Shown piece after piece: positions 1,285 to 13,856 of a stretch of 13,856 nucleotides of DNA. The notes below the pieces were generated by a model. The model was given only the letters and a program-made list of their open reading frames with translations, did no database searches and was not told the origin of the DNA. Made by a program: the position numbers and the translations under genes. How positions within the stretch are numbered: position 1 is the first letter of the stretch; every line of letters starts with the position of its first letter. This DNA is from a virus (Duplodnaviria > Heunggongvirae > Uroviricota > Caudoviricetes): IMG/VR virus record IMGVR_UViG_2585427730_000012; one strand, 5' to 3'.

Positions 1285-1315
1285 AGGTTGCTCCGGGCTA
1301 TGAAATAGAAAAATG

Positions 1316-1427
1316 AATCCGTTGAAGCCTGCTTTTTTATACTAAGTTGGCATTATAAAAAAGCATTGCTTATCAATTTGTTGCAACGAACAGGTCACTA
1401 TCAGTCAAAATAAAATCATTATTTGAT
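1316..1427. other. attL: Prophage attL (host B arm / 15-bp core 1331-1345 / phage P' arm with Int arm-type and IHF H' sites)
   Basis: Exact λ common core GCTTTTTTATACTAA at 1331-1345; upstream TGAAGCCT matches the attB left arm; downstream GTTGGCATTATAAAAAAGCATTGCTTATCAATTTGTTGCAACGAACAGGTCACTATCAGTCAAAATAAAATCATTATTTG matches the λ attP P' arm as recalled. Outer limits are approximate. Confidence 0.9.
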
Positions 1428-2489
1428 TTCAATTTTGTCCCACTCCCTGCCTCTGTCATCACGATACTGTGATGCCATGGTGTCCGACTTATGCCCGAGA
1501 AGATGTTGAGCAAACTTATCGCTTATCTGCTTCTCATAGAGTCTTGCAGACAAACTGCGCAACTCGTGAAAGGTAGGCGGATCCCCTTCGAAGGAAAGAC
1601 CTGATGCTTTTCGTGCGCGCATAAAATACCTTGATACTGTGCCGGATGAAAGCGGTTCGCGACGAGTAGATGCAATTATGGTTTCTCCGCCAAGAATCTC
1701 TTTGCATTTATCAAGTGTTTCCTTCATTGATATTCCGAGAGCATCAACATGCAATGCTGTTGGGATGGCAATTTTTACGCCTGTTTTGCTTTGCTCGACA
1801 TAAAGATATCCATCTACGATATCAGACCACTTCATTTCGCATAAATCACCAACTCGTTGCCCGGTAACAACAGCCAGTTCCATTGCAAGTCTGAGCCAAC
1901 ATGGTGATGATTCTGCTGCTTGATAAATTTTCAGGTATTCGTCAGCCGTAAGTCTTGATCTCCTTACCTCTGATTTTGCTGCGCGAGTGGCAGCGACAGG
2001 GTTTGTTGTTATATGGCCTTCAGCTATTGCCTCTCGGAATGCATCGCTCAGTGTTGATCTGATTAACTTGGCTGACGCCGCCTTGCCCTCGTCTATGTAT
2101 CCATTGAGCATTGCCGCAATTTCTTTTGTGGTGATGTCTTCAAGTGGAGCATCAGGCAGACCCCTCCTTATTGCTTTAATTTTGCTCATGTAATTTATGA
2201 GTGTCTTCTGCTTGATTCCTCTGCTGGCCAGGATTTTTTCGTAGCGATCAAGCCATGAATGTAACGTAACGGAATTATCACTGTTGATTCTCGCTGTCAG
2301 AGGCTTGTGTTTGTGTCCTGAAAATAACTCAATGTTGGCCTGTATAGCTTCAGTGATTGCGATTCGCCTGTCTCGGCCTAATCCAAACTCTTTACCCGTC
2401 CTTGGGTCCCTGTAGCAGTAATATCCATTGTTTCTTATATAAAGGTTAGGGGGTAAATCCCGGCGCTCATGACTTCGCCTTCTTCCCAT
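1419..2489 (-). CDS. int: Integrase (λ Int, tyrosine recombinase), 356 aa
   Basis: Protein begins MGRRRSHERRDLPPNLYIRNNGYYCYRDPRTGKEFGLG and ends ...REWDKIEIK, matching λ Int as recalled; adjacent to attL; overlaps xis as in λ. Confidence 0.97.
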   Translation of the reverse strand: MGRRRSHERRDLPPNLYIRNNGYYCYRDPRTGKEFGLGRDRRIAITEAIQANIELFSGHKHKPLTARINSDNSVTLHSWLDRYEKILASRGIKQKTLINYMSKIKAIRRGLPDAPLEDITTKEIAAMLNGYIDEGKAASAKLIRSTLSDAFREAIAEGHITTNPVAATRAAKSEVRRSRLTADEYLKIYQAAESSPCWLRLAMELAVVTGQRVGDLCEMKWSDIVDGYLYVEQSKTGVKIAIPTALHVDALGISMKETLDKCKEILGGETIIASTRREPLSSGTVSRYFMRARKASGLSFEGDPPTFHELRSLSARLYEKQISDKFAQHLLGHKSDTMASQYRDDRGREWDKIEIK

Positions 2490-2685
2490 TTCTGATCCTC
2501 TTCAAAAGGCTACCTGTTACTGGTCGATTTAAGTCAACCTTTACCGCTGATTCGTGGAACAGATATTCTCTTCCATCCTTAACCGGAGGAGGGAATATCC
2601 TGCATTCGCGCACCCATCGACGAACTGTTTCAAGGCTTCTTGGGCGTCGCTGGCGAGCGTTCCACTCCTGAAGTGTCAAGTACAT
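2467..2685 (-). CDS. xis: Excisionase (λ Xis), 72 aa
   Basis: MYLTLQEWNARQRRPRSLETVRRWVRECRIFPPPVKDGREYLFHESAVKVDLNRPVTGSLLKRIRNGKKAKS matches λ Xis as recalled; 3' end overlaps the int start. Confidence 0.95.
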   Translation of the reverse strand: MYLTLQEWNARQRRPRSLETVRRWVRECRIFPPPVKDGREYLFHESAVKVDLNRPVTGSLLKRIRNGKKAKS

Positions 2686-2724
2686 CGCAAAGTCTCCGCA
2701 ATTACACGCAAGAAAAAACCGCCA

Positions 2725-2892
2725 TCAGGCGGCTTGGTGTTCTTTCAGTTCTTCAATTCGAATATTGGTTACGTCTGCATGTGCTATCTGCGCCCACAGC
2801 ATCCAGTGGTCATAGCAGTCGCTGATGTTCTCGGCTTCGATAACTCTGTTGAATGGTTCTCCATTCCATTCACCTGTGACTCGGAAGTGCAT
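2725..2892 (-). CDS. Small phage protein, λ orf55-like (55 aa), function unknown
   Basis: Hand-translated from the minus strand: MHFRVTGEWNGEPFNRVIEAENISDCYDHWMLWAQIAHADVTNIRIEELKEHQAA, then TGA. GGAG sits 7 nt upstream of the ATG. Below the ORF-track length cutoff; position corresponds to λ orf55 downstream of xis. Confidence 0.65.
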   Translation of the reverse strand: MHFRVTGEWNGEPFNRVIEAENISDCYDHWMLWAQIAHADVTNIRIEELKEHQAA

Positions 2893-3134
2893 TTATCATC
2901 TCCATAAAACAAACCCCGCCGTAGCGAGTTCAGATAAAAGAAATCCTCGTCAGTGCGAGGATGCTGTTCATTGCTGCTATACACTTTTTTGCTCTCAACG
3001 TAAGCGGTAGCCCATTCTGTTGGGTTGGTGCAGTTGCTTTTAGGAAATGCTATTTACCCCTTAAATGTCGGCTGAAAGAGCTAAAATCCATGCAAAAAAT
3101 TTACGCAATTTTGTGTATTATTGTGCAGTAAGTA

Positions 3135-3737
3135 ATGAGCTATTTTCTGCGCAAAAAATGGATGGTAAATTTGTCCGGGTCAGGAAAAATTTTATGGGCG
3201 CTAAACATGAAAAAAGATTCGTATCCTTATTTGATTTGCATGACAGTTTCAGGGCTGATCTTTATTTTCCTTTTCTTCTGGTGGCGGGCAGATATCTACA
3301 GGGTCACGTTTCTTAATCAGAGTATATCCCACTATTACATTCTGTTTAGCATGGGAATAGCTTTTCTGTTATCTCTGTTTTGGGTTAAGAAGGGGATAGT
3401 AAAACAAAGCGGCTGGAAGAGTCTGTCAGCATACCTTAAGGTTTATGCAGGGATGTGCATATTTGCTGGATTTTTTCTGATTATACCCCTTACGACACTA
3501 ACTTATTTTTTGCCTGGAGAGACATCGTCTTATGTTGCACCGTATCGGTATACTTCCGGTAGTTCAAAAAGTTGTTCTGGAGCTGAGGTGGATGACCCCG
3601 ATCTACATGAGAATATTCGCATTTGCTATCCGTATGGCAATTATGAGTACGATAATATTATCTATGTTGAAAAGAAAATTAATATATTAGGTGCGGTAGT
3701 GACATATGCACAGACCGCGCGTGATGATACTGAATGA
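3135..3737 (+). CDS. Moron-encoded multi-pass membrane protein of unknown function (200 aa from first ATG; alternative starts at 3162 or 3207)
   Basis: A 200-codon open frame in visibly AT-rich DNA, where stop codons are frequent by chance. Three to four hydrophobic segments (LICMTVSGLIFIFLFFWW, YYILFSMGIAFLLSLFWV, YAGMCIFAGFFLIIPLTTLTYFL) precede a roughly 70-aa hydrophilic C-terminal domain. Opposite strand to the flanking phage genes. No convincing Shine-Dalgarno at any of the three candidate ATGs. Confidence 0.65.
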   Translation: MSYFLRKKWMVNLSGSGKILWALNMKKDSYPYLICMTVSGLIFIFLFFWWRADIYRVTFLNQSISHYYILFSMGIAFLLSLFWVKKGIVKQSGWKSLSAYLKVYAGMCIFAGFFLIIPLTTLTYFLPGETSSYVAPYRYTSGSSKSCSGAEVDDPDLHENIRICYPYGNYEYDNIIYVEKKINILGAVVTYAQTARDDTE

Positions 3738-3771
3738 TATAGTATATAGCGGGCAAGTTTTAGTTAATTTA

Positions 3772-3805
3772 TCGAGGTAATATAATTTACCTCGACTCGT
3801 TTGTT
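3772..3805 (+). terminator. Putative intrinsic terminator for the membrane-protein moron (perfect 9-bp stem, TATAAT loop, T-rich tail)
   Basis: TCGAGGTAA-TATAAT-TTACCTCGA is a perfect inverted repeat at 3772-3795, followed by CTCGTTTGTTCTGG; lies about 35 bp after the moron stop codon. Confidence 0.45.
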
Positions 3806-3947
3806 CTGGTATTAATATTTCGCTTTACGACCGATTTTTATCTGATGATATCATGCGGTTTTCATATACTGACTTACTGTCTTTTCTCCGTTAGCGATTT
3901 TCTCCTGCTCAGCGATGATTTTATCTTTGGCTTCTAGTTAATTTCGC

Positions 3948-4169
3948 TCACTTCGAACCTCTCTGTTTACTGATAAGCTCCAGATCTTGCTGGCAACTGG
4001 CACAAGTCCGACAACCCTGAACGGCCAGTCGTCTTCGTTCATCTATCGGATCGCCACACTCACAACAATGAGTGGCAGATATAGCCTGGTGGTTCAGGCG
4101 GCGCATTTTTATTGCTGTGTTGCGCTGTAATTCTTCAATTTCTGATGCTGAATCAATTATGTCTGCCAT
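3948..4169 (-). CDS. DksA/TraR-family C4 zinc-finger protein (λ Orf73 / TraR-like), 73 aa
   Basis: Contains CCECGDPIDERRRLAVQGCRTCASCQ, a CxxC-(17)-CxxC zinc-finger signature typical of TraR/DksA proteins; size and position fit the λ TraR homologue Orf73. Confidence 0.75.
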   Translation of the reverse strand: MADIIDSASEIEELQRNTAIKMRRLNHQAISATHCCECGDPIDERRRLAVQGCRTCASCQQDLELISKQRGSK

Positions 4170-4267
4170 CTTTCATTAATCCCTGAATTGTTGGTTAATA
4201 CGCTTGAGGGTGAATGCGAATAATAAAAAAGGAGCCTGTAGCTCCCTGATGATTTTGCTTTTCATGT

Positions 4268-4483
4268 TCACCGTTCCTTAAAGACGCCGTTCAACATGCC
4301 GATCGCCAGGCTTAAATGAGTCGGTGTGAATCCCATCAGCGTTACCGTTTCGCGGTGCTTCTTTAGTACGCTACGGCAAATGTCATCGACGTTTTTATCC
4401 GGAAACTGCTGTCTGGCTTTTTTGATTTCAGAATTAGCCTGACGGGCAATGCTGCGAAGGGCGTTTTCTTGCTGAGGTGTCAT
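4268..4483 (-). CDS. Small phage protein of unknown function in the orf61 position (71 aa from the internal ATG; the ORF extends to 4549 if the upstream ATG is used)
   Basis: Open frame 4268-4549; the charged, helix-like sequence begins at MTPQQENALRSIARQANSEIKKARQQFPDK, whereas the 22 residues upstream (MHFSGSGLHILCAYACRHGACS) look unlike protein. Start assignment is uncertain. Confidence 0.5.
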   Translation of the reverse strand: MTPQQENALRSIARQANSEIKKARQQFPDKNVDDICRSVLKKHRETVTLMGFTPTHLSLAIGMLNGVFKER

Positions 4484-4559
4484 TGAACAAGCCCCATGTC
4501 GGCAAGCATAAGCACACAGAATATGAAGCCCGCTGCCAGAAAAATGCATTCAGTGGTTG

Positions 4560-4751
4560 TCATACCTGGTCTCTCTCATCTGCTTCTGCTTTCGCCACCA
4601 TCATTTCCAGCTTTTGTGAAAGGGATGCGGCTAACGTATGAAATTCTTCGTCTGTTTCTACTGGTATTGGCACAAACCTGACTCCAATTTGAGCGAGGCT
4701 ATGTGCCATCTCGATACTCGTTCTTAACTCAACGGGAGATGCTTTGTGCAT
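4560..4751 (-). CDS. λ orf63-like small protein (63 aa)
   Basis: A 63-aa ORF whose coordinates map exactly onto λ orf63 when the same offset that fits exo, bet, gam, kil, cIII and ea10 is applied. Confidence 0.7.
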   Translation of the reverse strand: MHKASPVELRTSIEMAHSLAQIGVRFVPIPVETDEEFHTLAASLSQKLEMMVAKAEADERDQV

Positions 4752-4906
4752 ACAGCTCCCCGTTTATTATTTATCTCCTCAGCCAGCCGCTGTGCTTTCA
4801 GGGGATTTCTGATAACAGAAAGGCCGGGAAATACCCAGCCTCGCTTTGTAACGGAGTAGACGAAAGTGATCGCACCTACCCGGATATTATCGTGAGGATG
4901 CTTCAT
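4724..4906 (-). CDS. λ orf60a-like small protein (60 aa; an ATG two codons upstream at 4912 is also possible)
   Basis: [34 protein letters not shown]...; its start overlaps the exo stop codon, the arrangement recalled for λ exo/orf60a. Confidence 0.7.
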
Positions 4907-5583
4907 CGCCATTGCTCCCCAAATACAAAACCAATTTCAGCCAGTGCCTCGTCCATTTTTTCGATGAACTCCGGCACCATCTCGTCAAAACTCGCCATGT
5001 ACTTTTCATCCCGCTCAACCACGACATAATGCAGGCCTTCACGCTTCATACGCGGGTCATAGTTGGCAAAGTACCAGGCATCTTTTCGCGTCACCCACAT
5101 GCTGTACTGCACCTGGGCCATGTAAGCCGACTTTATGGCCTCGAAACCACCGAGCCGGAACTTCATGAAATCCCGGGAGGTAAACGGGCATTTCAGCTCA
5201 AGGCCATTGCCGTCACTGCATAAACCATCGGGAGAGCAGGCGGTACGCATACTTTCGTCGCGATAGATGATCGGGGATTCAGTAACATTCACGCCGGAAG
5301 TGAATTCAAACAGAGTTCTGGCGTCGTTCTCGTACTGTTTTCCCCATGCCAGCGCCTTAGCATTAACTTCCGGAGCCACACCGGTGCAAACCTCAGCCAG
5401 CAGGGTGTGGAAGTAGGACATTTTCATGTCAGGCCACTTTTTTCCGGAGCGGGGTTTTGCTATCACATTGTGAACTTCTGAAGCGGTGATGACGCCGAGC
5501 CGTAATTTGTGCCACGCATCATCCCCCTGTTCGACAGCTCTCACGTCGATTCCGGTACGCTGCAGGATAATGTCCGGTGTCAT
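4903..5583 (-). CDS. exo: λ exonuclease (Red alpha), 226 aa
   Basis: [65 protein letters not shown]... matches λ Exo as recalled; ATGA overlap with the bet stop. Confidence 0.97.
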
Positions 5584-6365
5584 GCAGCCACCTTCTGCTC
5601 AGTGGCTTTCTGTTTCAGGAATCCAAGAGCTTTCACTGCTTCGGCCTGTGTCAGTTCTGACGATGCGCGAATGTCGCGGCGAAATATCTGGGAACAGAGC
5701 GGCAATAAGTCGTCATCCCATGTTTTATCCAGGGCAATCAGCAGAGTGTTAATCTCCTGCATGGTTTCATCGTTAACCGGAGTGATGTCGCGTTCCGGCT
5801 GACGTTCTGCAGTGTATGCGGTATTTTCGACAATGCGCTCGGCTTCATCCTTGTCATAGATACCCGCAAATCCGAAGGCGAGACGGGCACACTGAATCAT
5901 GGCTTTATGCCGTAACATCCGTTTGGGATGCGACTGCCACGGTCCGGTGATTTCTCTGCCTTCGCGGGTTTTGAATGGTTCGCGGCGGCATTCATCCATC
6001 CACTCGGTAACGCAGATCGGATGATTGCGGTCCTTGCGGTAAATCCGGCATGTGCAGGATTCATTGTCCTGCTCAAAGTCCATGCCATCAAACTGCTGGT
6101 TTTCATTGATGATACGGGACCAGCCATCAACGCCCACCACCGGAACGATGCCGTTCTGCTTGTCAGGGAAGGCGTAAATTTCTTTCGTCCACGGATTAAG
6201 GCCGTACTGGTTGGCGACGATCAGCAATGCGATGAACTGCGCATCGCTGGCATCACCTTTAAATGCCGTCTGGCGAAGAGTGGTGATCAGTTCCTGTGGG
6301 TCGACAGAATCCATGCCGACGCGTTCAGCCAGCTTCCCAGCCAGCGTTGCGAGTGCTGTACTCAT
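5580..6365 (-). CDS. bet: λ Bet (Red beta) single-strand annealing protein, 261 aa
   Basis: [100 protein letters not shown]... matches λ Beta as recalled. Confidence 0.97.
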
Positions 6366-6370
6366 CCGTT

Positions 6371-6787
6371 TTATACCTCTGAATCAATATCAACCTGGTG
6401 GTGAGCAATGGTTTCAACCATGTACCGGATGTGTTCTGCCATGCGCTCCTGAAACTCAACATCGTCATCAAACGCACGGGTAATGGCTTTTTTGCTGGCC
6501 CCGTGGCGTTGTAAATGATCGATGCAGAGTGATTCAAACAGGTTCTGGGGCAGACCTTTTTCCATGTCGTCTGCCAGTTCTGCCTCTTTCTCTTCACGGG
6601 CGATCTGCTGGTAGTGACGCGTCCAGCTCTGAGCCTCAAGACGATCCTGAATGTAATAAGCGTTCATGGCTGAACTCCTGAAATAGCTGTGAAAATATCG
6701 CCCGCGAAATGCCGGGCTGATTAGGAAAACAGGAAAGGGGGTTAGTGAATGCTTTTGCTTGATCTCAGTTTCAGTATTAATATCCAT
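6371..6787 (-). CDS. gam: λ Gam (RecBCD inhibitor), 138-aa long form; the internal start [15 protein letters not shown] gives the short form
   Basis: [100 protein letters not shown]... matches λ Gam as recalled. Confidence 0.95.
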
Positions 6788-6885
6788 TTTTTATAAGCGT
6801 CGACGGCCTCACGAAACATCTTTTCATCGCCAATAAAAGTGGCGATAGTGAATTTAGTCTGGATAGCCATAAGTGTTTGATCCAT
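6742..6885 (-). CDS. kil: λ Kil (FtsZ-inhibiting host-killing protein), 47 aa
   Basis: [47 protein letters not shown] is present as the C-terminal part of the 6742-7011 ORF; overlaps the gam start as in λ. Confidence 0.85.
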
Positions 6886-7018
6886 TTTTTGGGACTCCTG
6901 GCTGATTAAGTATGTCGATAAGGCGTTTCCATCCGTCACGTAATTTACGGGTGATTCGTTCAAGTAAAGATTCGGAAGGGCAGCCAGCAACAGGCCACCC
7001 TGCAATGGCATATTGCAT
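6854..7018 (-). CDS. cIII: λ CIII (FtsH inhibitor that stabilises CII), 54 aa
   Basis: Hand-translated: [54 protein letters not shown], then TAA; missed by the ORF track because it is shorter than the cutoff and overlaps kil in another frame. Confidence 0.9.
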   Translation of the reverse strand: MQYAIAGWPVAGCPSESLLERITRKLRDGWKRLIDILNQPGVPKNGSNTYGYPD

Positions 7019-7090
7019 GGTGTGCTCCTTATTTATACATAACGAAAAACGCCTCGAGTGAAGCGTTATTGGTATGCGGTAACGCCGCGC

Positions 7091-7459
7091 TCAGGCGGCT
7101 TTGATAGTCATATCATCTGAATCAAATATTCCTGATGTATCGATATCGGTAATTCTTATTCCTTCGCTACCATCCATTGGAGGCCATCCTTCCTGACCAT
7201 TTCCATCATTCCAGTCGAACTCACACACAACACCATATGCATTTAAGTCGCTTGAAATTGCTATAAGCAGAGCATGTTGCGCCAGCATGATTAATACAGC
7301 ATTTAATACAGAGCCGTGTTTATTGAGTCGGTATTCAGAGTCTGACCAGAAATTATTAATCTGGTGAAGTTTTTCCTCTGTCATTACGTCATGGTCGATT
7401 TCAATTTCTATTGATGCTTTCCAGTCGTAATCAATGATATATTTTTTGATGTTTGACAT
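7091..7459 (-). CDS. ea10: λ Ea10-like protein, 122 aa
   Basis: 122-aa ORF MSNIKKYIIDYDWKASIEIEIDHDVMTEEKLHQINNFWSDSEYRLNKHGSVLNAVLIMLAQHALLIAISSDL...; length and coordinates match λ ea10 under the same offset as the Red genes. Confidence 0.85.
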   Translation of the reverse strand: MSNIKKYIIDYDWKASIEIEIDHDVMTEEKLHQINNFWSDSEYRLNKHGSVLNAVLIMLAQHALLIAISSDLNAYGVVCEFDWNDGNGQEGWPPMDGSEGIRITDIDTSGIFDSDDMTIKAA

Positions 7460-7477
7460 CTATTCATATCCTCACAG

Positions 7478-7505
7478 ATAAAAAATCGCCCTCACATTGG
7501 AGGGC
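7478..7505 (-). terminator. Intrinsic terminator on the leftward (pL) transcript just upstream of ea10
   Basis: Minus strand reads GCCCTC-CAATGT-GAGGGC followed by GATTTTTTATC: a 6-bp GC-rich stem with a U-run. Confidence 0.55.
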
Positions 7506-7719
7506 AAAGAAGATTTCCAATAATCAGAACAAGTCGGCTCCTGTTTAGTTACGAGCGACATTGCTCAGTGTATTCACTCGTTGGAATGAATACACAGTGC
7601 AGTGTTTATTAGTATGCCTGTCTTTTAACCACATCAGGCTCGGTGGTTCTCGTGTACCCCTACAGCGAGAAATCGGATAAACTCTATTCACCCCTACAGA
7701 GAGCAAAAGAGAAACGCCG

Positions 7720-8301
7720 ATGAACAACTCATGGTGGCAGGAACTAATGCATTTTTTCCTGCAAGGAATGACACTTAAACAGTTGATTCATATGCTAATC
7801 ATCCTGATCATATTGATTATTGTTATGCCTGTAAGCGTAAAAGAATGGATAAACCTGCATAATCCAGAAATCCTTCCTCATTACTGGATGTATTACATCC
7901 TGTTGTTTTGCGTTAGCTATGTGCTTAACGGCGTTGTTAATTCCGCTTATCACGCTGTGACTGAAAGAATTGAGATATTCGCTGCTCAGAAGCGCAAATC
8001 TAAAGAAGAGAAATACGTGCAAGATTTGTTTGATTCGTTAACTCTTGGAGAAAGAGCGTATTTGGCATTCGCTGTAGCCGCTAATAACCAGCTAAAGACA
8101 GAAAAGGGAAGCCCTGAAGCAATCTCATTGCTCGAAAAAGGGCTTCTTATTCGGGTACCTTCTGCTACTGGATATCCTGAAATCGACCGTTTTGTTATCC
8201 CGGAACGCTATAGAAATGAGTGCTACATTAGGTTTGCTGGGAAGAAAGACAGTCTTATGGATGAACTTATCGCTCAGGATAAGCATGGCAAAAACAAGTA
8301 A
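7720..8301 (+). CDS. sieB: Superinfection exclusion protein B (SieB), membrane protein; 193 aa from first ATG, 184 aa from ATG at 7747
   Basis: N-terminal hydrophobic segment LIHMLIILIILIIVMPVSV; opposite strand to the surrounding early-left genes; ends 16 bp before the N-like gene, as λ sieB does; the 184-aa form matches the recalled λ sieB length and coordinates. Confidence 0.82.
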   Translation: MNNSWWQELMHFFLQGMTLKQLIHMLIILIILIIVMPVSVKEWINLHNPEILPHYWMYYILLFCVSYVLNGVVNSAYHAVTERIEIFAAQKRKSKEEKYVQDLFDSLTLGERAYLAFAVAANNQLKTEKGSPEAISLLEKGLLIRVPSATGYPEIDRFVIPERYRNECYIRFAGKKDSLMDELIAQDKHGKNK

Positions 8302-8317
8302 TTAGCAAATTAATTTA

Positions 8318-8590
8318 TCATCTCGCCGTCAGTTGTTTTGATTTCCGGTAGCCTGCCGCGTAAATGGCTACGTTTGGCAGGCAAATACTTCCACTGCATT
8401 CATCTGCCTTCTTGCAGCGAAGGCTTCCGAGTGATGCTGCTTTGTCTGCTCTGACGCAACCAGAGAGCTTTAGCGCAATTTTTCGCGCCAGTCGCTGTTC
8501 TTGCATTGCCTGCTCACGTTGAGCCTGTCTGCGTGCTCTGCGGCGATTTCTGGCGTTATTGTCAGCCAGATATGTAATGACTACTGCCAT
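8318..8590 (-). CDS. N-type transcription antiterminator, P22 gene 24-like, with arginine-rich motif; 90 aa
   Basis: MAVVITYLADNNARNRRRARRQAQREQ... has an arginine-rich N-terminus and the C-terminal ...NVAIYAAGYRKSKQLTAR resembling P22 gp24; GGAGG lies 5 nt upstream of the ATG; immediately downstream of nutL/pL. It is not λ N. Confidence 0.75.
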   Translation of the reverse strand: MAVVITYLADNNARNRRRARRQAQREQAMQEQRLARKIALKLSGCVRADKAASLGSLRCKKADECSGSICLPNVAIYAAGYRKSKQLTAR

Positions 8591-8697
8591 GTTGACCTCC
8601 GATGATTAACTTTGGCGGTGACGCGCCGGGTGCTTATCTTCCGGTTGCCGTCGTGCAGCTGCACTTCACGTCACCCCAAAGCCAACTACTCTTTGGT

Positions 8698-8738
8698 TCC
8701 CGCATTTCGGCGGGACAATCCCATCAATGTTAAAGAGC
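8698..8738 (-). promoter_or_regulatory. nutL: nutL: boxA (GCTCTTTAACA, 8728-8738) and boxB hairpin (UCCCGC-CGAAAU-GCGGGA, 8698-8715)
   Basis: The boxB hairpin is identical to the one after cro (nutR) and boxA is the same in both; order boxA-spacer-boxB on the leftward transcript between pL and the N-like gene. Confidence 0.8.
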
Positions 8739-8779
8739 CTGCCAATCTGTTCCGTTTGGCTACCAGCGTCCTGCCGATG

Positions 8780-8880
8780 ACTTAAATTTAAGATTTCTTT
8801 AACTATTGGTCAAGAGTGTTTTTGAAGAAAACTTAAATTTTGTTGCGAAGCTTAAGTTTTGCTTTGATTTTTAAAGGAAA
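8780..8880 (-). promoter_or_regulatory. pL promoter / OL operator region (P22-type operators)
   Basis: Minus-strand TTGACC (8808-8813), 17-bp spacer, TAAATT (8785-8790); AT-rich palindromic half-sites of the ATTTAAGA / TCTTAAAT type (e.g. 8783-8800 and about 8841-8872) resemble P22 c2 operators. Exact operator limits not resolved. Confidence 0.5.
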
Positions 8881-8905
8881 GAAAAAAAGGGGCGAATGCC
8901 CCTTA
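8880..8905 (-). terminator. Intrinsic terminator at the end of the c2 repressor gene
   Basis: Minus strand AAGGGGC-ATTC-GCCCCTT followed by TTTTTTTC; overlaps the c2 stop codon. Confidence 0.6.
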
Positions 8906-9553
8906 TGGAAGGTTTGCTATTTTTGCATCGACAACTACACCGATGATTTTGCAGTTCCCGTTGATCTCAATCATCGGATATTGTGGGTTAAGTGGTTTTA
9001 GAAACCTTCTGCCAGCATCAATAACTAACTTCTTGAAAGTTGCCTCGTTTTCTCCTTCGAGCTTTGCCACTACCAGCTTCCCATTACGAGGTTCTACTTC
9101 AGGATCGACTAGTATTATCATCCCTTCCGGGATGCTAAGACCGGCTGGAGCCGTCATCGAATCACCCTTTACGTCCAGCCAAAACGAATCTTCTGAACAA
9201 TCTACGGTTGTATCGTACCAGTTATCTATTGCACGCTTATGATATGGCTCTACAGCTTCCATCCAACATCCTGCGCTTACCCAACTAATTAGAGGATACG
9301 AACCTCTTGGATCATGCCTGCTGTGATAGGCAATGTTTGAAAGACTATCTTCTCCTTTCAACAAGTAATCAGGGGAGCACTGTAAAGCCTTGGCTAAAGC
9401 CAATAGGTTTTCGCCATTGGGCTCAGTTTCAGAACGCTCCCATTGGGAAATAGCAACATTAGACACGCCAACCATCTTGCCGAGGGCAGCCTGCCTAATC
9501 TTAAGTTCTTTTCTGCGAGCGCGAATACGCTCACCCATCAGTTGTGTATTCAT
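8903..9553 (-). CDS. c2: Prophage repressor, P22 C2-type (HTH DNA-binding domain plus LexA/S24-like autocleavage domain), 216 aa
   Basis: MNTQLMGERIRARRKELKIRQAALGKMVGVSNVAISQWERSETEPNGENLLALAKALQCSPDYLLKG... ...GDSMTAPAGLSIPEGMIILVDPEVEPRNGKLVVAKLEGENEATFKKL... closely matches P22 c2 as recalled, with a few apparent substitutions; divergently transcribed from cro. Confidence 0.95.
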   Translation of the reverse strand: MNTQLMGERIRARRKELKIRQAALGKMVGVSNVAISQWERSETEPNGENLLALAKALQCSPDYLLKGEDSLSNIAYHSRHDPRGSYPLISWVSAGCWMEAVEPYHKRAIDNWYDTTVDCSEDSFWLDVKGDSMTAPAGLSIPEGMIILVDPEVEPRNGKLVVAKLEGENEATFKKLVIDAGRRFLKPLNPQYPMIEINGNCKIIGVVVDAKIANLP

Positions 9554-9633
9554 AGTTAAGACATCTTAAATAAACTTGACTTAAGATTCCTTTGATAGAT
9601 AATTTAAGTGTTCTTTAATTTCGGGGCGAGTCT
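9554..9633. promoter_or_regulatory. OR operators with divergent pRM/pR promoters
   Basis: Palindromic operator AGTTAAGACATCTTAAAT (9554-9571) and a related site ATTTAAGTGTTCTTTAAT (about 9603-9620); pR -35 TTGACT (9575-9580) with GATAAT 16 bp downstream; sits between the c2 start and the cro start. Confidence 0.65.
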
Positions 9634-9819
9634 ATGTACAAGAAAGATGTTATCGACCACTTCGGAACCCAGCGTGCGGTAGCTAAAGCGTTAGGCATTA
9701 GCGATGCAGCAGTCTCTCAGTGGAAGGAAGTCATCCCAGAGAAAGACGCCTATCGACTGGAAGTCGTTACAGCTGGCGCCCTGAAGTATCAAGAAAGTGC
9801 TTATCGCAAAGCGGCATAA
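9634..9819 (+). CDS. cro: Cro repressor, P22-type, 61 aa
   Basis: MYKKDVIDHFGTQRAVAKALGISDAAVSQWKEVIPEKDAYRLEVVTAGALKYQESAYRKAA matches P22 Cro as recalled. Confidence 0.9.
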   Translation: MYKKDVIDHFGTQRAVAKALGISDAAVSQWKEVIPEKDAYRLEVVTAGALKYQESAYRKAA

Positions 9820-9826
9820 GCAAATT

Positions 9827-9869
9827 GCTCTTTAACAGTCATGGTCCTTATTCCCGCCGAAATGCGGGA
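9827..9869 (+). promoter_or_regulatory. nutR: nutR: boxA (GCTCTTTAACA, 9827-9837) and boxB hairpin (UCCCGC-CGAAAU-GCGGGA, 9852-9869)
   Basis: Immediately after the cro stop; the boxB hairpin is identical to the nutL copy. Confidence 0.8.
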
Positions 9870-9927
9870 ATACAACGCGCATCAGTTGGTGCGTATAACT
9901 TCTTATTTGTTAAGGAAATACTTACAT

Positions 9928-10206
9928 ATGCAACTTACAAGTACTCGCAAGAAAGCGAATGCAATCACAAGCAACATCCTGAATCGAATTGCTGTACGTG
10001 GTCAGCGAAAGGTTGCTGATGCATTAGGGATTAATGAATCGCAAATTTCGCGATGGAAAGACAGCTTTATCCCAAAGATGGCCATGCTTCTGGCTGTGCT
10101 GGAGTGGGGTGTTGAAGACGAGGAATTAGCAAAGCTAGCAAAGAAAGTAGCCATGGTGCTGACAAAAGAAAAGCCTCAAGACTGCTGCAACAGTTTTGAG
10201 GCCTGA
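9928..10206 (+). CDS. c1: CII-type transcriptional activator (P22 C1-like), 92 aa
   Basis: MQLTSTRKKANAITSNILNRIAVRGQRKVADALGINESQISRWKDSFIPKMAMLLAVLEWGVEDEELAKLAKK... matches P22 c1 as recalled; AGGA about 11 nt upstream; the ORF-track frame runs further upstream but this ATG is the supported start. Confidence 0.85.
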   Translation: MQLTSTRKKANAITSNILNRIAVRGQRKVADALGINESQISRWKDSFIPKMAMLLAVLEWGVEDEELAKLAKKVAMVLTKEKPQDCCNSFEA

Positions 10207-10240
10207 TGTAGAAAGACTGGATCAATCCACAGGAGTCATT

Positions 10241-11140
10241 ATGACAAATACAGCAAAAATACTCAACTTCGGCAGAGGTAACTTTGCCGGACAGGAGCGT
10301 AATGTGGCAGATCTCGATGATGGTTACGCCAGACTATCAAATATGCTGCTTGAGGCTTATTCAGGCGCAGATCTGACCAAGCGACAGTTTAAAGTGCTGC
10401 TTGCCATTCTGCGTAAAACCTATGGGTGGAATAAACCAATGGACAGAATCACCGATTCTCAACTTAGCGAGATTACAAAGTTACCTGTCAAACGGTGCAA
10501 TGAAGCCAAGTTAGAACTCGTCAGAATGAATATTATCAAGCAGCAAGGCGGCATGTTTGGACCAAATAAAAACATCTCAGAATGGTGTATCCCTCAAAAC
10601 GAGGGAAAATCCCCTAAAACGAGGGATAAAACATCCCTCAAATTGGGGGATTGCTATCCCTCAAAACAGGGGGACACAAAAGACACTATTACAAAAGAAA
10701 AAAGAAAAGATTATTCGTCCGAGAATTCTGGCGAATCCTCTGACCAGCCAGAAAACGATCTTTCTGTGGTTAAACCGGATGCTGCAATTCAGAGCGGCAG
10801 TAAGTGGGGAACAGCAGAAGACCTGACCGCCGCAGAGTGGATGTTTGACATGGTGAAGACCATCGCGCCATCAGCCAGAAAACCGAATTTTGCTGGGTGG
10901 GCTAACGATATCCGCCTGATGCGTGAACGTGACGGACGTAACCACCGCGATATGTGTGTGCTTTTCCGCTGGGCCTGCCAGGACAACTTCTGGTCCGGTA
11001 ACGTGCTGAGTCCGGCCAAACTCCGCGACAAGTGGACCCAGCTCGAAATCAACCGTAACAAGCAACAGGCTGGCGTGACAGCCGGAAAACCAAAACTCGA
11101 CCTGACAAACACTGACTGGATTTACGGGGTGGATCTATGA
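10241..11140 (+). CDS. O: Replication initiator O (λ O protein), 299 aa
   Basis: MTNTAKILNFGRGNFAGQERNVADLDDGYARLSNMLLEAYSGADLTKRQFKVLLAILRKTYGWNKPMDRITDSQLSEITKLPVKRCNEAKLELVRMNIIKQQGGMFGPNKNISEW... matches λ O as recalled; GGAG 6 nt upstream of the ATG; ori iterons lie inside the gene. Confidence 0.95.
   Translation: MTNTAKILNFGRGNFAGQERNVADLDDGYARLSNMLLEAYSGADLTKRQFKVLLAILRKTYGWNKPMDRITDSQLSEITKLPVKRCNEAKLELVRMNIIKQQGGMFGPNKNISEWCIPQNEGKSPKTRDKTSLKLGDCYPSKQGDTKDTITKEKRKDYSSENSGESSDQPENDLSVVKPDAAIQSGSKWGTAEDLTAAEWMFDMVKTIAPSARKPNFAGWANDIRLMRERDGRNHRDMCVLFRWACQDNFWSGNVLSPAKLRDKWTQLEINRNKQQAGVTAGKPKLDLTNTDWIYGVDL
10589..10725. repeat. ori: ori λ: four roughly 19-bp iterons (O-protein binding sites) followed by an AT-rich unwinding region
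   Basis: Iterons ATCCCTCAAAACGAGGGA, AATCCCCTAAAACGAGGGA, ACATCCCTCAAATTGGGGGA and TATCCCTCAAAACAGGGGGA at 10589-10674, then the A-rich tract ACAAAAGAAAAAAGAAAAGATTATT. Confidence 0.92.
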
Positions 11141-11838
11141 AAAACATCGCCGCACAGATGGTTAACTTTGACCGTGAGCAGATGCGTCGGATCGCCAACA
11201 ACATGCCGGAACAGTACGACGAAAAGCCACAGGTACAGCAGGTAGCGCAGATCATCAACGGTGTGTTCAGCCAGTTACTGGCAACTTTCCCGGCGAGTCT
11301 GGCTAACCGTGACCAGAACGAACTGAACGAAATCCGCCGCCAGTGGGTTCTGGCTTTCCGGGAAAACGGGATCACCACAATGGAACAGGTTAACGCAGGA
11401 ATGCGCGTAGCCCGTCGGCAGAACCGACCATTCCTGCCATCACCCGGGCAGTTTGTTGCATGGTGCCGGGAAGAAGCATCCGTTATCGCCGGACTGCCAA
11501 ACGTCAGCGAGCTGGTTGATATGGTTTACGAGTATTGCCGGAAGCGAGGCCTGTATCCGGATGCGGAGTCTTATCCGTGGAAATCAAACGCGCACTACTG
11601 GCTGGTTACCAACCTGTATCAGAACATGCGGGCCAATGCGCTTACTGATGCGGAATTACGCCGTAAGGCCGCAGATGAGCTTGTCCATATGACTGCGAGA
11701 ATTAACCGTGGTGAGGCGATCCCTGAACCAGTAAAACAACTTCCTGTCATGGGCGGTAGACCTCTAAATCGTGCACAGGCTCTGGCGAAGATCGCAGAAA
11801 TTAAAGCTAAGTTCGGACTGAAAGGAGCAAGTGTATGA
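11137..11838 (+). CDS. P: Replication protein P (λ P, DnaB helicase loader), 233 aa
   Basis: MKNIAAQMVNFDREQMRRIANNMPEQYDEKPQVQQVAQIINGVFSQLLATFPASLANRDQNELNEIRRQWVLAFRENGITTMEQVNAGMRVARRQNRPFLPSPGQFVAWCREEAS... matches λ P as recalled; ATGA overlap with the O stop. Confidence 0.95.
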   Translation: MKNIAAQMVNFDREQMRRIANNMPEQYDEKPQVQQVAQIINGVFSQLLATFPASLANRDQNELNEIRRQWVLAFRENGITTMEQVNAGMRVARRQNRPFLPSPGQFVAWCREEASVIAGLPNVSELVDMVYEYCRKRGLYPDAESYPWKSNAHYWLVTNLYQNMRANALTDAELRRKAADELVHMTARINRGEAIPEPVKQLPVMGGRPLNRAQALAKIAEIKAKFGLKGASV

Positions 11839-12008
11839 TGGGCAAAGAGGCAATTATTCATTACCTGGGGACGCACAAGAGCTTCTGTGCGCCGGACGTT
11901 GCTGCGACAACAGGTGTGACATTAACCAGCATAAATCAGGCTGCGGCAAAAATGGCGCGGGCAGGAATCCTGGTCATTGATGGTAAGGTCTGGCGAACGT
12001 TTGTTTAA
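11835..12008 (+). CDS. ren: Ren-like protein, C-terminally truncated or replaced (57 aa, against 96 aa in λ)
   Basis: Hand-translated: MMGKEAIIHYLGTHKSFCAPDVAATTGVTLTSINQAAAKMARAGILVIDGKVWRTFV, then TAA. Matches the recalled λ Ren N-terminus (MTGKEAIIHYLGTHNSFCAPDVAALTGATVTSINQAAAKMARAGVLVIEGKVWRT...) and diverges or stops after KVWRT. Overlaps the P stop. Confidence 0.7.
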   Translation: MMGKEAIIHYLGTHKSFCAPDVAATTGVTLTSINQAAAKMARAGILVIDGKVWRTFV

Positions 12009-12154
12009 CGGTTAGCTACTCAGGATGATAGGGCGGGGCAAGTGAGTATGAAGCGGATTTTCAGGAATGCCATCAGAGTTTGGAAATAAAGTGGGTTTTC
12101 TAGTGGCAAGAGACTTGATAATATTTAGTTCTTTGAATCCAAGGAGATAGGGTT

Positions 12155-12649
12155 ATGAGAAAATTTATTTTAGCCTTTGTTATAAGTGCCTCGTTTACAG
12201 CAAATGCTGGTGTAGAGAAGTTAGGGCCGTGGATAACAAAGTCTGAGATAAATAAAATGACTGACCAGACTGACTTTGTGGCCCTTAATTTATCACCAGA
12301 TTCATATAACAAAGCAGGTACTGATCGTGCAACTTCACTGGTGTTGCGTTGTAGTGATAACAAAACAGATGCCTATTTATCATTCAATGATTATATGGGT
12401 TCGGACAACCCAAGAATTACAGTGCGGTTAGATGGCGGAAAGCCGGTCAAGAGTGTTTGGGGAGGTGGGGAAGGCGGTGATTCTGCATTTGCTCCACAAC
12501 CAATACAATTTATAAAGACCTTGGCTAAGCATAAAAAAGCTATTTTTGGGTTTGAACCTTATGGATCAACTATGCAAGTAGTTGAGTTTGACTTGTCTGA
12601 GATTGATAAGGTTGTGGAAAAAATTTCACAGTCTTGCAATTGGAAATGA
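12155..12649 (+). CDS. Moron-encoded secreted (periplasmic or exported) protein of unknown function, 164 aa
   Basis: Strong RBS AAGGAGA 7 nt upstream of the ATG; N-terminal signal peptide MRKFILAFVISASFTANA with an AxA cleavage site and no lipobox cysteine; two cysteines in the mature part; AT-rich; followed by its own terminator. Confidence 0.75.
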   Translation: MRKFILAFVISASFTANAGVEKLGPWITKSEINKMTDQTDFVALNLSPDSYNKAGTDRATSLVLRCSDNKTDAYLSFNDYMGSDNPRITVRLDGGKPVKSVWGGGEGGDSAFAPQPIQFIKTLAKHKKAIFGFEPYGSTMQVVEFDLSEIDKVVEKISQSCNWK

Positions 12650-12666
12650 CAAAAAAATTTCATATG

Positions 12667-12694
12667 AACCCAGTTTGCGCTGGGTTTTTTATTT
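12667..12694 (+). terminator. Intrinsic terminator of the secreted-protein moron
   Basis: AACCCAG-TTTGCG-CTGGGTT followed by a T-run (TTTTTTATTTC), 18 bp after the stop codon. Confidence 0.8.
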
Positions 12695-13175
12695 CAGTAG
12701 CCAATAATGCATTCAAAATCTCTTACTTGAGAAACGGCCTATTTGAGATTTCAGTCGTGGCAGGATGATCAGTTGATTCGAGTATTGACGCATTTGCGTT
12801 CGGAGCGATTACAGTAGATTGTAAATAATAATGAGAAACACATAGCCACCCCGTGGTATTGAAACCATATAATGTTGGATTTGAAAACAGATCTTTTCCC
12901 ATGTATTAATAACTACATCCCCGCGAGTGATTCAAAAAGGAGGGCCCAATTTTGTCCGAGTTTTTGTATTCCCCCGCATGCCGCTGCGGAGCACTACATC
13001 TGAGTGTCTGACTAGGGGATAAAATTAGACTGGATAGTGAGAAGAAAGTGGCGCGCTAGGCTGTGCCGAGTGCTACCAGTACACCTTGGGGGTGTGCAGC
13101 TTTCGCCGAGACTGTAGTGGGTATCGGTTAATGCACGAAAAACCGAGAGGTCAGACAACCAATTTGCCGTAGGAT

Positions 13176-13856
<681 letters not shown>

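What the first reader, a model, noticed from the sequence alone, without database searches (positions are those of the whole stretch)
8698..8738. nutL and nutR share an identical boxB hairpin unlike λ or P22 boxB, paired with a divergent N-like protein
Both nut sites contain UCCCGC-CGAAAU-GCGGGA: a 6-bp stem with a six-nucleotide loop that embeds a GAAA (GNRA-like) core. λ boxB is GCCCU-GAAAA-AGGGC and P22 boxB is GCGCU-GACAA-AGCGC. The cognate antiterminator (8318-8590) has a distinct arginine-rich N-terminus (NARNRRRARRQAQREQ). Together these suggest an N-boxB recognition pair with its own specificity. The second copy is at 9827-9869.
Basis: partly seen in the sequence, partly recalled or inferred. 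Interest (0 to 1): 0.4.

Follow-up and report, generated by a model that had tools for sequence, protein, structure and literature searches.

The report
HK620-type N antiterminator and nut sites
The two identical hairpins are the nutL and nutR boxB sites of an ordinary lambdoid prophage and match its N protein, but the same pair was annotated in coliphage HK620 in 2001 and sits in hundreds of E. coli genomes, so it is real but not new.

Summary
TCCCGCCGAAATGCGGGA occurs exactly twice, at 8698-8715(-) and 9852-9869(+). Each copy follows a boxA (GCTCTTTAACA) and lies downstream of pL or of cro. The first pL gene (8318-8590, -) encodes an N protein with the arginine-rich motif (ARM) NARNRRRARRQAQREQ.

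Across about 100 related loci this ARM always travels with this boxB. Phages 21 and HK629 share the rest of N, boxA and the immunity region but carry a different ARM and different boxBs. Their identity to the window collapses only over the ARM codons, boxB-L and boxB-R. Stem changes are compensatory and the loop CGAAAU never varies. This fits a cognate pair with its own specificity.

It is not new. Phage HK620 (GenBank AF335538) annotates a 96%-identical N and the same nutL and nutR. HK630, HK140, mEpX2, CUS-3 and others carry the pair, as do 418 of 5426 complete E. coli genomes.

"Unlike P22" is overstated. P22 boxB-right (CCGC-C-GACAA-C-GCGG) is this hairpin plus one loop C, and the protein belongs to the P22 N Pfam family.

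I found no experimental test of its specificity. A side scan showed at least 10 natural ARM/boxB cassette types on the same pL leader.

The parts
8698..8715 (-). boxB of nutL: UCCCGC-CGAAAU-GCGGGA hairpin
   Evidence: Exact repeat. RNA fold. Identical to the annotated HK620 nutL. Stem covariation with an invariant loop across variants.
8716..8727 (-). nutL spacer (UUGAUGGGAUUG) between boxA and boxB
   Evidence: Read from the sequence. Conserved in nearly all loci that carry this boxB.
8728..8738 (-). boxA of nutL (GCUCUUUAACA)
   Evidence: The same boxA occurs in phage 21, HK629 and HK620 nutL, where it is annotated as boxA or nutL.
8610..8681 (-). Long hairpin in the N leader between nutL and the N start codon
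   Evidence: Inverted repeat I18. It is the dominant stem in the MFE and centroid fold of the leader. Any role, such as an RNase III or translational control site as in the lambda N leader, is inferred only.
8318..8590 (-). N antiterminator gene, 90 aa, first gene of the pL operon
   Evidence: ORF. Pfam PF25694 N_peptide at 58.7 bits against a cutoff of 27.9. 96% identical to HK620 N.
8501..8566 (-). Codons 9-30 of N: the arginine-rich motif ADNNARNRRRARRQAQREQAMQ
   Evidence: Alignment with lambda, P22, phi21 and epsilon34 N shows the invariant core A13, R16, R20, R21. This stretch is the 40-53% identity patch against HK629/phi21, while the rest of N is 93-100% identical to HK629.
8785..8813 (-). 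pL-like promoter (TTGACC-17-TAAATT) upstream of nutL
   Evidence: Consensus scan. The position corresponds to the annotated pL/OL of HK620 and phage 21.
8903..9553 (-). P22-c2/imm21-like CI repressor between the two nut sites
   Evidence: ORF. Pfam HTH_3 plus Peptidase_S24. 80-100% nucleotide identity to phage 21 and HK629.
9576..9603 (+). pR-like promoter (TTGACT-16-GATAAT)
   Evidence: Consensus scan, 10 of 12 positions matched.
9634..9819 (+). cro (P22_Cro family); nutR follows it directly
   Evidence: Pfam PF14549 at 96.3 bits.
9827..9837 (+). boxA of nutR (GCUCUUUAACA)
   Evidence: Inverted repeat I4 with boxA-L. Identical to the annotated HK620 nutR.
9838..9851 (+). nutR spacer
9852..9869 (+). 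boxB of nutR, identical to boxB of nutL
   Evidence: Identity to phi21/HK629 drops to 33% exactly here.

Best explanation
These are the nutL and nutR sites of a lambdoid prophage integrated at att-lambda next to ybhC, and the ORF is their cognate N protein. The N/nut module is the type found in coliphage HK620.

Inferred mechanism, by homology to lambda and P22: transcripts from pL and pR carry boxA followed by the boxB hairpin. The N-terminal ARM of N (about residues 9-30) binds the boxB loop. The loop is most likely a GAAA GNRA tetraloop stacked on a C.U mismatch. The middle and C-terminal parts of N, with NusA and with NusB/S10 on boxA, then convert RNA polymerase to a termination-resistant form. 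That polymerase reads through the early terminators into the recombination and replication genes.

The ARM and the two boxBs form a co-adapted specificity cassette. It has been exchanged as a set against the phi21-type cassette in an otherwise homologous backbone. Recognition is therefore expected to differ from lambda and phi21. It is probably closest to P22 boxB-right recognition, in a variant without an extruded loop base.

Shown here: the sequence anatomy, family membership, identity to HK620, co-occurrence of ARM and boxB, and stem covariation. Inferred: RNA binding, the loop fold, Nus dependence and specificity.
For: Exact duplicate hairpin behind boxA in both early operons. N belongs to PF25694 together with P22 gp24. 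N, nutL and nutR match the annotated HK620 features.

Among distinct (nut, N) sequence combinations in the fetched loci, every N type paired only with its own boxB type: 37 HK620/HK620, 16 lambda/lambda, 9 P22/P22, 7 phi21/phi21, 3 H-19B-like, 3 L152-type, 1 L145-type and 1 L204-type. The only unclassified rows (6) are lambda-type N paired with an unrelated boxA-like motif. 77 loci with this ARM have the boxB at both nut sites, although the cI/cro genes between them differ.

The identity profile against HK629/phi21 falls to 40-53% over the ARM codons, 50% at boxB-L and 33% at boxB-R, inside 80-100% flanks. Over 8 distinct boxB variants, 4 of 8 stem pairs change on both sides, 90.6% of cells are paired, and the loop with its closing C-G never varies.

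Lambda N needs a U 5' of the loop G and a closing U-A pair (PMC12027372). This boxB has C and C.U there, which argues against lambda cross-recognition.
Against: No experiment on this N/boxB pair was found in the searchable literature. Binding, the GNRA fold and orthogonality are therefore inference.

Co-occurrence at nutL is partly trivial, because boxB-L and the ARM codons lie within about 200 nt. The loci are also related by descent and were sampled by similarity.

P22 boxB-right is so similar that cross-recognition with P22 N cannot be excluded. From my own recollection of Cocozaki et al. 2008 (paper not held), some GNRA-like hexaloops work with P22 N.

mEp213 and L069 carry this N without an intact cognate boxB, so the gene can persist as a passenger.
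Confidence: 0.85

Rival explanations
1. This is the same N/nut system, but it is not a separate specificity. The ARM is a drifted P22-type ARM that recognises any GNRA-like boxB loop. On this view HK620-type and P22-type N/boxB are functionally interchangeable, and the pair is a sequence variant inside the P22 specificity class.
For: P22 boxB-right, ACCGC-C-GACAA-C-GCGGU, differs from this boxB by one extra loop C and one C-to-U change. The N-terminus MTVVITY and the core NA[KR]xRRxxRR resemble P22 gp24, and both proteins hit PF25694. From my own recollection (Cocozaki et al. 2008, not held), P22 N requires only a GNRA-like loop and tolerates some hexaloops.
Against: No natural locus mixes the types. 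All 9 distinct P22-ARM combinations have GACAA boxBs and all 37 HK620-ARM combinations have CGAAAU boxBs. Beyond the conserved core the two ARMs differ at most positions (RRQAQREQAMQ against RRRKLAIERDT).
Confidence: 0.25
2. The hairpins are not protein-recognition sites. They would be generic structures such as intrinsic terminators, RNase III sites or DNA operators that happen to be duplicated.
For: They are stable G+C-rich hairpins. The z-scores of the surrounding 61-66 nt folds are unremarkable, at -0.39 and -1.54.
Against: No U-tract follows either hairpin, and the terminator scan does not call them. Both sit at a fixed distance behind boxA in the two early operons. The loop is invariant while the stem covaries. 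They swap in step with the ARM of N. The operators lie elsewhere, around pL and pR.
Confidence: 0.03
3. The module is a decaying remnant. The prophage would be defective, and N and the nut sites would be retained only by linkage and no longer used.
For: Orphan copies of this N exist. In mEp213 and L069 it sits behind a lambda-type N with only half a boxB, and in L010 an IS element separates it from nutL.
Against: In the window the N ORF is intact, both nut sites are perfect, and pL, pR, cI, cro, cII, O and P are all present. The same module is carried by plaque-forming phages HK620, HK630, HK140, mEpX2 and CUS-3.
Confidence: 0.05

Closest known systems
Coliphage HK620 N, nutL and nutR (GenBank AF335538; Clark et al. 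2001, J Mol Biol 311:657)
   Same: N is 96% identical. The ARM is identical except for D11N. The boxA, spacer and boxB of nutL are identical across the 41 bases compared. nutR differs only at the base before boxA and by one spacer base. Both sit in the same operon positions.
   Different: The immunity region differs. HK620 has a 434/L-like cI and a lambda-like cro, whereas the window has a P22-c2/imm21-like cI and cro. The virion genes are of another type: HK620 is P22-like, and the window's prophage has lambda int, xis, exo and bet at att-lambda. In HK620 the sites are annotated as 'putative', and I found no functional test.
Salmonella phage P22 gp24 (N) with boxB-right
   Same: Same Pfam family PF25694. 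Similar N-terminus and ARM core NA[KR]xRRxxRR. boxB-right shares the CCGC/GCGG stem top, a pyrimidine-pyrimidine mismatch at the loop-closing position, and a G-A-(x)-A-A GNRA-type loop. The pL leader is homologous.
   Different: The P22 loop is the pentaloop GACAA, whose third base is extruded in the solved boxB-left complex (own knowledge: Cai et al. 1998). Here the core is the tetraloop GAAA. P22's two boxBs differ from each other, while here they are identical. Beyond the core the ARM residues differ.
Phage 21 / HK629 N and nut sites
   Same: Same boxA, same pL leader and same middle of N (ARKIALKLSGCVRADKAASLGS). HK629 also shares the C-terminus. The imm21/P22-like cI and cro are at 80-100% nucleotide identity.
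   Different: The ARM is GTAKSRYKARRAELIAERR and the boxBs are CUCAAC-CUAAC-CGUUGAG (left) and CACCU-CUAAC-CGGGUG (right). These are U-turn-type loops rather than GNRA (own knowledge: Cilley and Williamson 2003). Only these three patches diverge.
Phage lambda N with boxB (GCCCU-GAAAA/GAAGA-AGGGC)
   Same: Same architecture: boxA, spacer and boxB in both early operons, with N as the first pL gene. Same ARM core AxxRRRxRR and a G-A-A-A purine loop core.
   Different: Lambda N falls in Pfam N36 (PF11438), not N_peptide. Lambda has Trp18, while this ARM has Ala28 at the aligned position. Lambda needs a closing U-A pair with U 5' of the loop G, and here that position is C.U. The lambda loop is a pentaloop with an extruded fourth base.
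H-19B / 933W / epsilon34-type N
   Same: Shares the C-terminal CLPNVAxYAAGxRKSKQxTAR tail.
   Different: It is 120-127 aa long, with ARM 12-RSRRRER-18 (PMC3526286). Its boxB is GGCUGAAAAGCC, preceded by an extra spacer dyad.

Membership tests
Lambdoid N/nut processive antitermination module | A boxA element (consensus about CGCUCUUUAACA) lies upstream of a hairpin in the early transcripts | tested here: met
   GCTCTTTAACA at 8728-8738(-) and 9827-9837(+), 12 and 14 nt before the hairpins.
Lambdoid N/nut processive antitermination module | Two nut sites: one just downstream of pL before N, one just downstream of cro | tested here: met
   pL-like promoter at 8813-8785(-), then nutL, then N. pR-like promoter at 9576-9603(+), then cro, then nutR.
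Lambdoid N/nut processive antitermination module | [quoted passage not shown] | tested here: met
   A 90-aa ORF with A13, R16, R20 and R21 invariant in the alignment with lambda, P22, phi21 and epsilon34 N.
Lambdoid N/nut processive antitermination module | The ARM type and the boxB type co-vary between phages as a cognate pair | tested here: met
   Every classified (nut, N) combination paired an N type with its own boxB type, across 8 types. Three discrete divergent patches against phi21/HK629.
Lambdoid N/nut processive antitermination module | N binds boxB RNA and gives Nus-dependent read-through of terminators | not testable with these tools
   This needs EMSA or ITC and reporter assays. 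No published test of this type was found.
Pfam PF25694 N_peptide (P22 gp24 family) | Score above the family's gathering threshold of 27.9 bits | tested here: met
   58.7 bits, residues 11-90. P22 gp24 scores 152.2 bits and HK620 N 58.4 bits.
HK620-type N/nut | ARM YLADDNARNRRRARRQAQREQAMQ with boxB UCCCGC-CGAAAU-GCGGGA at both nutL and nutR | tested here: met
   The ARM is identical except for D11N, and both boxBs are identical to the annotated HK620 features.
P22-type boxB (specificity class) | GNRA-like pentaloop (GACAA) with one base looped out | tested here: not met
   The loop is CGAAAU. Its GNRA core GAAA has four bases, with none spare to extrude. It may work like P22 boxB-right, but by sequence it is not that boxB.
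Lambda-type boxB/N (specificity class) | Closing U-A pair with a GNRNA pentaloop, and Trp18 in the ARM | tested here: not met
   C.U replaces the U-A pair and the core is a tetraloop. Ala28 aligns with lambda Trp18. Lambda N hits PF11438 only.
Intrinsic terminator | G+C-rich hairpin followed directly by a U-tract | tested here: not met
   The hairpins are followed by ACCAAAGAG and AUACAACG, and the terminator scan does not call them.

The most novel reading that the evidence does not exclude
The HK620-type boxB may be a natural boxB whose loop is a true GNRA tetraloop (GAAA) closed by a C.U mismatch. It would have no extruded base, unlike lambda (fourth base) and P22 (third base). Its ARM may be orthogonal to lambda, P22 and phi21. 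If so, it would be a fourth, experimentally uncharacterised ARM-hairpin recognition mode. It would also be a natural test of whether the extruded base, which in lambda is implicated in the NusA contact, is needed for antitermination. It would add an orthogonal peptide/hairpin tether for RNA tools. Together with the other untested cassettes seen on the same pL leader, it suggests the natural repertoire of N specificities is much larger than the three or four studied so far.
Probability: 0.4. Interest if true: 0.35.

Novelty: already known. Interest (0 to 1): 0.17.

Why it matters
As a discovery it matters little. The module is a standard lambdoid N/nut system, its exact sequences have been annotated in phage HK620 since 2001, and it occurs in about 8% of complete E. 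coli genomes.

Its value is as a clean natural example of a modular specificity swap. The ARM, boxB-L and boxB-R are replaced together in an otherwise conserved backbone. It is also a common but, as far as I could find, biochemically untested N-peptide/boxB pair. Characterising it and the other cassette types seen in passing would extend the classic lambda/P22/phi21 model of arginine-rich-motif RNA recognition. It could also supply new orthogonal RNA tethers.

Tried and rejected
- The genome-contig scan failed first with an 12-sequence N alignment that had no conserved stretch.
- The viral-contig scan with the N alignment returned only 95-100% identical relatives. That was useful for counting but not for diversity. 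Diversity came from the look-up of encoding contigs and from a scan anchored on the pL leader.
- I searched viral contigs for intermediates between P22 boxB-right and this boxB, using CCGCCGAAACGCGG and CCGCCGACAATGCGG. None of the 240 loci had a boxA context, so no conclusion follows.
- Full-text searches for the ARM string or the boxB string found nothing. Searches combining HK620 with boxB, nut or N protein found only the epsilon34 genome paper, which does not discuss this pair.
- Clark et al. 2001 and Cocozaki et al. 2008 are not held.
- The PDB sequence search gave no meaningful hit, and NCBIfam gave none. Rfam has no nut or boxB family and matched only the cIII thermoregulator elsewhere in the window.
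- A tRNA-like string between nutL and N in the Enterobacter loci was not confirmed by ARAGORN.
- I rejected a terminator, RNase III site or operator reading of the hairpins, for the reasons given under the rival explanations.
- I did not run structure prediction. N proteins are largely disordered without RNA (own knowledge), and the tool cannot model the RNA complex.

Full report
**1. The observation**

The window carries TCCCGCCGAAATGCGGGA exactly twice, at 8698-8715 on the minus strand and 9852-9869 on the plus strand. None of 200 shuffles produced a match. The two copies share 19 nt at 100% complementarity.

As RNA each copy forms a hairpin with the loop CGAAAU. The stem is 6 bp at the left copy and 9 bp at the right copy. 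Each hairpin follows GCTCTTTAACA by 12 or 14 nt.

The left copy lies between a pL-like promoter (8813-8785, minus strand) and a 90-aa ORF (8318-8590, minus strand). The right copy lies directly after cro, downstream of a pR-like promoter at 9576-9603. The ORF begins MAVVITYLADNNARNRRRARRQAQREQ.

**2. Context**

The window is the left arm and immunity region of a lambdoid prophage at att-lambda. In order it holds:
- ybhC, then lambda-type int, xis, exo, bet and gam
- kil and cIII, with the cIII thermoregulator RNA at 6973-7031
- sieB
- N, a P22-c2/imm21-like cI, a P22-type cro, cII, O and P

It matches several ETEC genomes at 100% identity.

**3. Family membership**

The ORF scores 58.7 bits on Pfam PF25694 "Transcriptional antitermination N peptide", against a cutoff of 27.9. 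P22 gp24 is this family's full-length match at 152 bits. Lambda N hits only PF11438.

An alignment with lambda, P22, phi21 and epsilon34 N shows the invariant ARM core A13, R16, R20, R21, that is A-x-x-R-x-x-x-R-R.

**4. Already annotated in HK620**

A search with the ARM, leader and nutL stretch (window 8480-8745) found 32 phage records at 97-98% identity. They include HK620, HK630, HK140, mEpX2, mEp213, CUS-3, JEP4, N7, HF4s, ECP1, IME10, Gally and a few Stx phages.

The HK620 record (AF335538, Clark et al. 2001) annotates three features: "antitermination protein N", "nutL; putative N-utilization leftward" and "nutR; putative N-utilization rightward". Its N is 96% identical to the window's, and the ARM differs only by D11N. 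Its annotated nutL matches the window over the 41 bases compared. Its nutR differs only at the base before boxA and by one spacer base.

In E. coli, 418 of 5426 complete genomes hold at least 80% of window 8480-8760. The protein clusters have hundreds to more than a thousand members.

So the pair is the HK620-type N/nut module, and it is common. I found no paper that tests its RNA-binding specificity. The two most relevant papers are not in the library.

**5. Is it a cognate pair with its own specificity?**

The comparative evidence says yes, in five ways.

(a) The ARM YLADDNARNRRRARRQAQREQAMQ is almost invariant. It sits on N proteins with at least three different middle and C-terminal parts, from E. 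coli, Salmonella, Enterobacter and other hosts.

(b) Every locus with this ARM has the CGAAAU boxB. The only exceptions have an IS insertion or a two-N arrangement. 77 loci carry the boxB at both nut sites, even though the cI and cro genes between them are of several unrelated types.

(c) A scan anchored on the conserved pL leader recovered many other N types. Over distinct (nut, N) sequence combinations, each N type paired only with its own boxB type:

| ARM type / boxB type | distinct combinations |
|---|---|
| HK620 / HK620 | 37 |
| lambda / lambda | 16 |
| P22 / P22 | 9 |
| phi21 / phi21 | 7 |
| H-19B-like | 3 |
| L152-type | 3 |
| L145-type | 1 |
| L204-type | 1 |

The only other rows (6) are lambda-type N paired with an unrelated boxA-like motif that is not a nut site.

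(d) HK629 and phage 21 share this window's boxA, pL leader, middle of N and immunity region. HK629 also shares the N C-terminus. A 30-nt sliding identity profile against the window gives:

| Region (window coordinates) | Identity |
|---|---|
| N codons 30-90, vs HK629 | 93-100% |
| ARM codons (8505-8594) | 40-53% |
| boxB-L (8681-8710) | 50% |
| cI and cro | 80-100% |
| boxB-R (9849-9878) | 33% |

These phages carry the phi21 ARM GTAKSRYKARRAELIAERR and phi21 boxBs instead. Three separate patches have changed together, and one of them lies more than 1 kb from the other two. That is the signature of a co-adapted specificity set.

(e) Across 8 distinct variants of this boxB, 4 of 8 stem pairs show changes on both sides. 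One example is G-C to A-U in the nutR of L087 and L173. 90.6% of cells are paired, against 34-59% when the partner is slid by 1-3 columns. The loop CGAAAU and its closing C-G never vary.

Two caveats apply. The loci are related by descent and were sampled by similarity. And boxB-L and the ARM codons are only about 200 nt apart, so linkage explains part of the co-occurrence at nutL.

**6. How different is it from lambda and P22?**

P22 boxB-right is ACCGC-C-GACAA-C-GCGGU, and its C6.C12 mismatch is documented in PMC6023938. The window's CCCGC-C-GAAA-U-GCGGG has three things in common with it:
- the same CCGC/GCGG stem top
- a pyrimidine-pyrimidine mismatch at the loop-closing position
- the same loop minus the C that P22 extrudes in its solved boxB-left complex (the extrusion is from my own knowledge of Cai et al. 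1998)

What remains is GAAA, a canonical GNRA tetraloop. The N-terminus (MTVVITY against MTVITY) and the ARM core are also P22-like. So the module is best described as a P22-family variant, and not as something unlike P22.

Against lambda the difference is clearer. Lambda N needs U 5' of the loop G and a closing U-A pair (PMC12027372), and here these positions are C and C.U. Lambda's stacking Trp18 aligns with Ala28.

H-19B N is a different, 127-aa protein with ARM RSRRRER (PMC3526286).

**7. Mechanism**

By homology, the ARM binds the boxB loop on the nascent pL and pR transcripts. N, together with NusA and with NusB/S10 on boxA, then renders RNA polymerase resistant to the downstream terminators. 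One such terminator is the strong minus-strand terminator at 7507-7486.

This is inference from established lambda and P22 biology. Nothing here tests binding or read-through.

The main open question is whether specificity is separate from P22. I put that rival at about 0.25. Readings as a terminator, an operator or a decayed remnant are unlikely. No U-tract follows either hairpin, their position behind boxA is fixed, they co-vary with the ARM, and all the neighbouring genes are intact.

**8. Verdict**

This is a real cognate N/boxB pair distinct from lambda and phi21.
- Novelty: already known.
- Interest: low. There is a modest residual case that this common, apparently untested tetraloop boxB and its ARM would be worth characterising.

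**9. Seen in passing**

- The same pL leader carries at least 10 ARM/boxB cassette types, several apparently undescribed.
- Phage mEp213 and one metagenomic relative carry two N genes in tandem. The first is lambda-type with lambda-type nutL (and, in mEp213, lambda-type nutR). The second is HK620-type and sits behind a boxB that has lost its 5' arm and its boxA.

Noticed in passing
L074 (= phage mEp213, JQ182733; L221 4039-5796 and 7240-7370) and L069: There are two N genes in tandem in one pL operon. The first is lambda-type (MDAQTRRRERRAEKQAQW); in mEp213 it has lambda-type nutL and nutR. About 1.1 kb downstream in mEp213, or directly after it in L069, sits an intact HK620-type N. That second N is preceded by only the loop and 3' arm of its boxB (GCCCUC-CGAAAU-GCGGGAAC or GGAAUG-CCGAAAUGCGGGAAC) and has no boxA. 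Both junctions fall inside the 5' arm of boxB. The second N may be an orphan passenger, or it may act in trans on other prophages.
   Followed up: partly
Loci L101-L220 (leader-anchored scan), e.g. L152/L153/L188, L123/L203, L133, L204, L145: The conserved pL leader CATCAGCAGGACGC...boxA carries at least 10 different boxB/ARM cassettes. Several seem uncharacterised: CUCCCGCCCUUGUGGGAG with SNSVTRRYLKRGELIAKRRAEAA; GGGGCUGUUUCGGCCC with MTNREHKKLLRAIRHQQEKRDNQ; GGGGAUGAUUCGUCCCC with MKAREIRKLERARQHKEIKQY; UCUCCCUGAUGCGGGGAGA with MNSRQRYKAKRAAEHRERKEY. L145 has a hybrid HK620/phi21 ARM (SDNSKNRYRARRAAKREQAMQ) with a phi21-like loop (CUAGC).
   Followed up: partly
window 8610-8681 (-): A long, nearly perfect hairpin (about 20 bp with internal branches) lies in the N leader between nutL and the N ribosome-binding site. 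By position it recalls the RNase III-sensitive leader structure of lambda N. It is conserved in CUS-3, HK620 and L094.
   Followed up: partly
window 6973-7031 (-): Rfam Lambda_thermo (cIII thermoregulator) matches at 88.5 bits, E = 6.5e-21, at the start of the cIII gene.
   Followed up: no
window 7720-8301 (+): A SieB superinfection-exclusion gene (Pfam PF14163, 90 bits) lies on the opposite strand directly downstream of N, as in lambda and P22.
   Followed up: no
L010 about 300-800: DNA unrelated to the usual N leader replaces nutL upstream of an HK620-type N. It looks like an IS element (a minus-strand ORF resembling a transposase), but I did not check this with a protein-family search. Only the last ~120 nt of the leader remain.
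   Followed up: no
L089-L091 (Enterobacter-associated contigs) 1740-2750: Here about 220 nt separate nutL from N, against about 110 nt in the window. The extra sequence contains a tRNA-like string that ARAGORN does not call. An HNH/AP2 endonuclease gene directly follows N.
   Followed up: partly
window 1-13856 against ETEC genomes (e.g. NZ_CP025916 591227-610679): The window matches at 100% identity but in two pieces spanning 19.4 kb of the genome. Those genomes therefore carry about 5.6 kb of extra DNA inside this region relative to the window. An ompC-like porin is among the annotated features.
   Followed up: no
window 3135-3737 (+): A 200-aa ORF with several hydrophobic segments lies in the region between xis and the recombination genes. 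It runs opposite to the pL operon and is of low G+C by eye. It is probably a moron (accessory gene) and was not examined.
   Followed up: no
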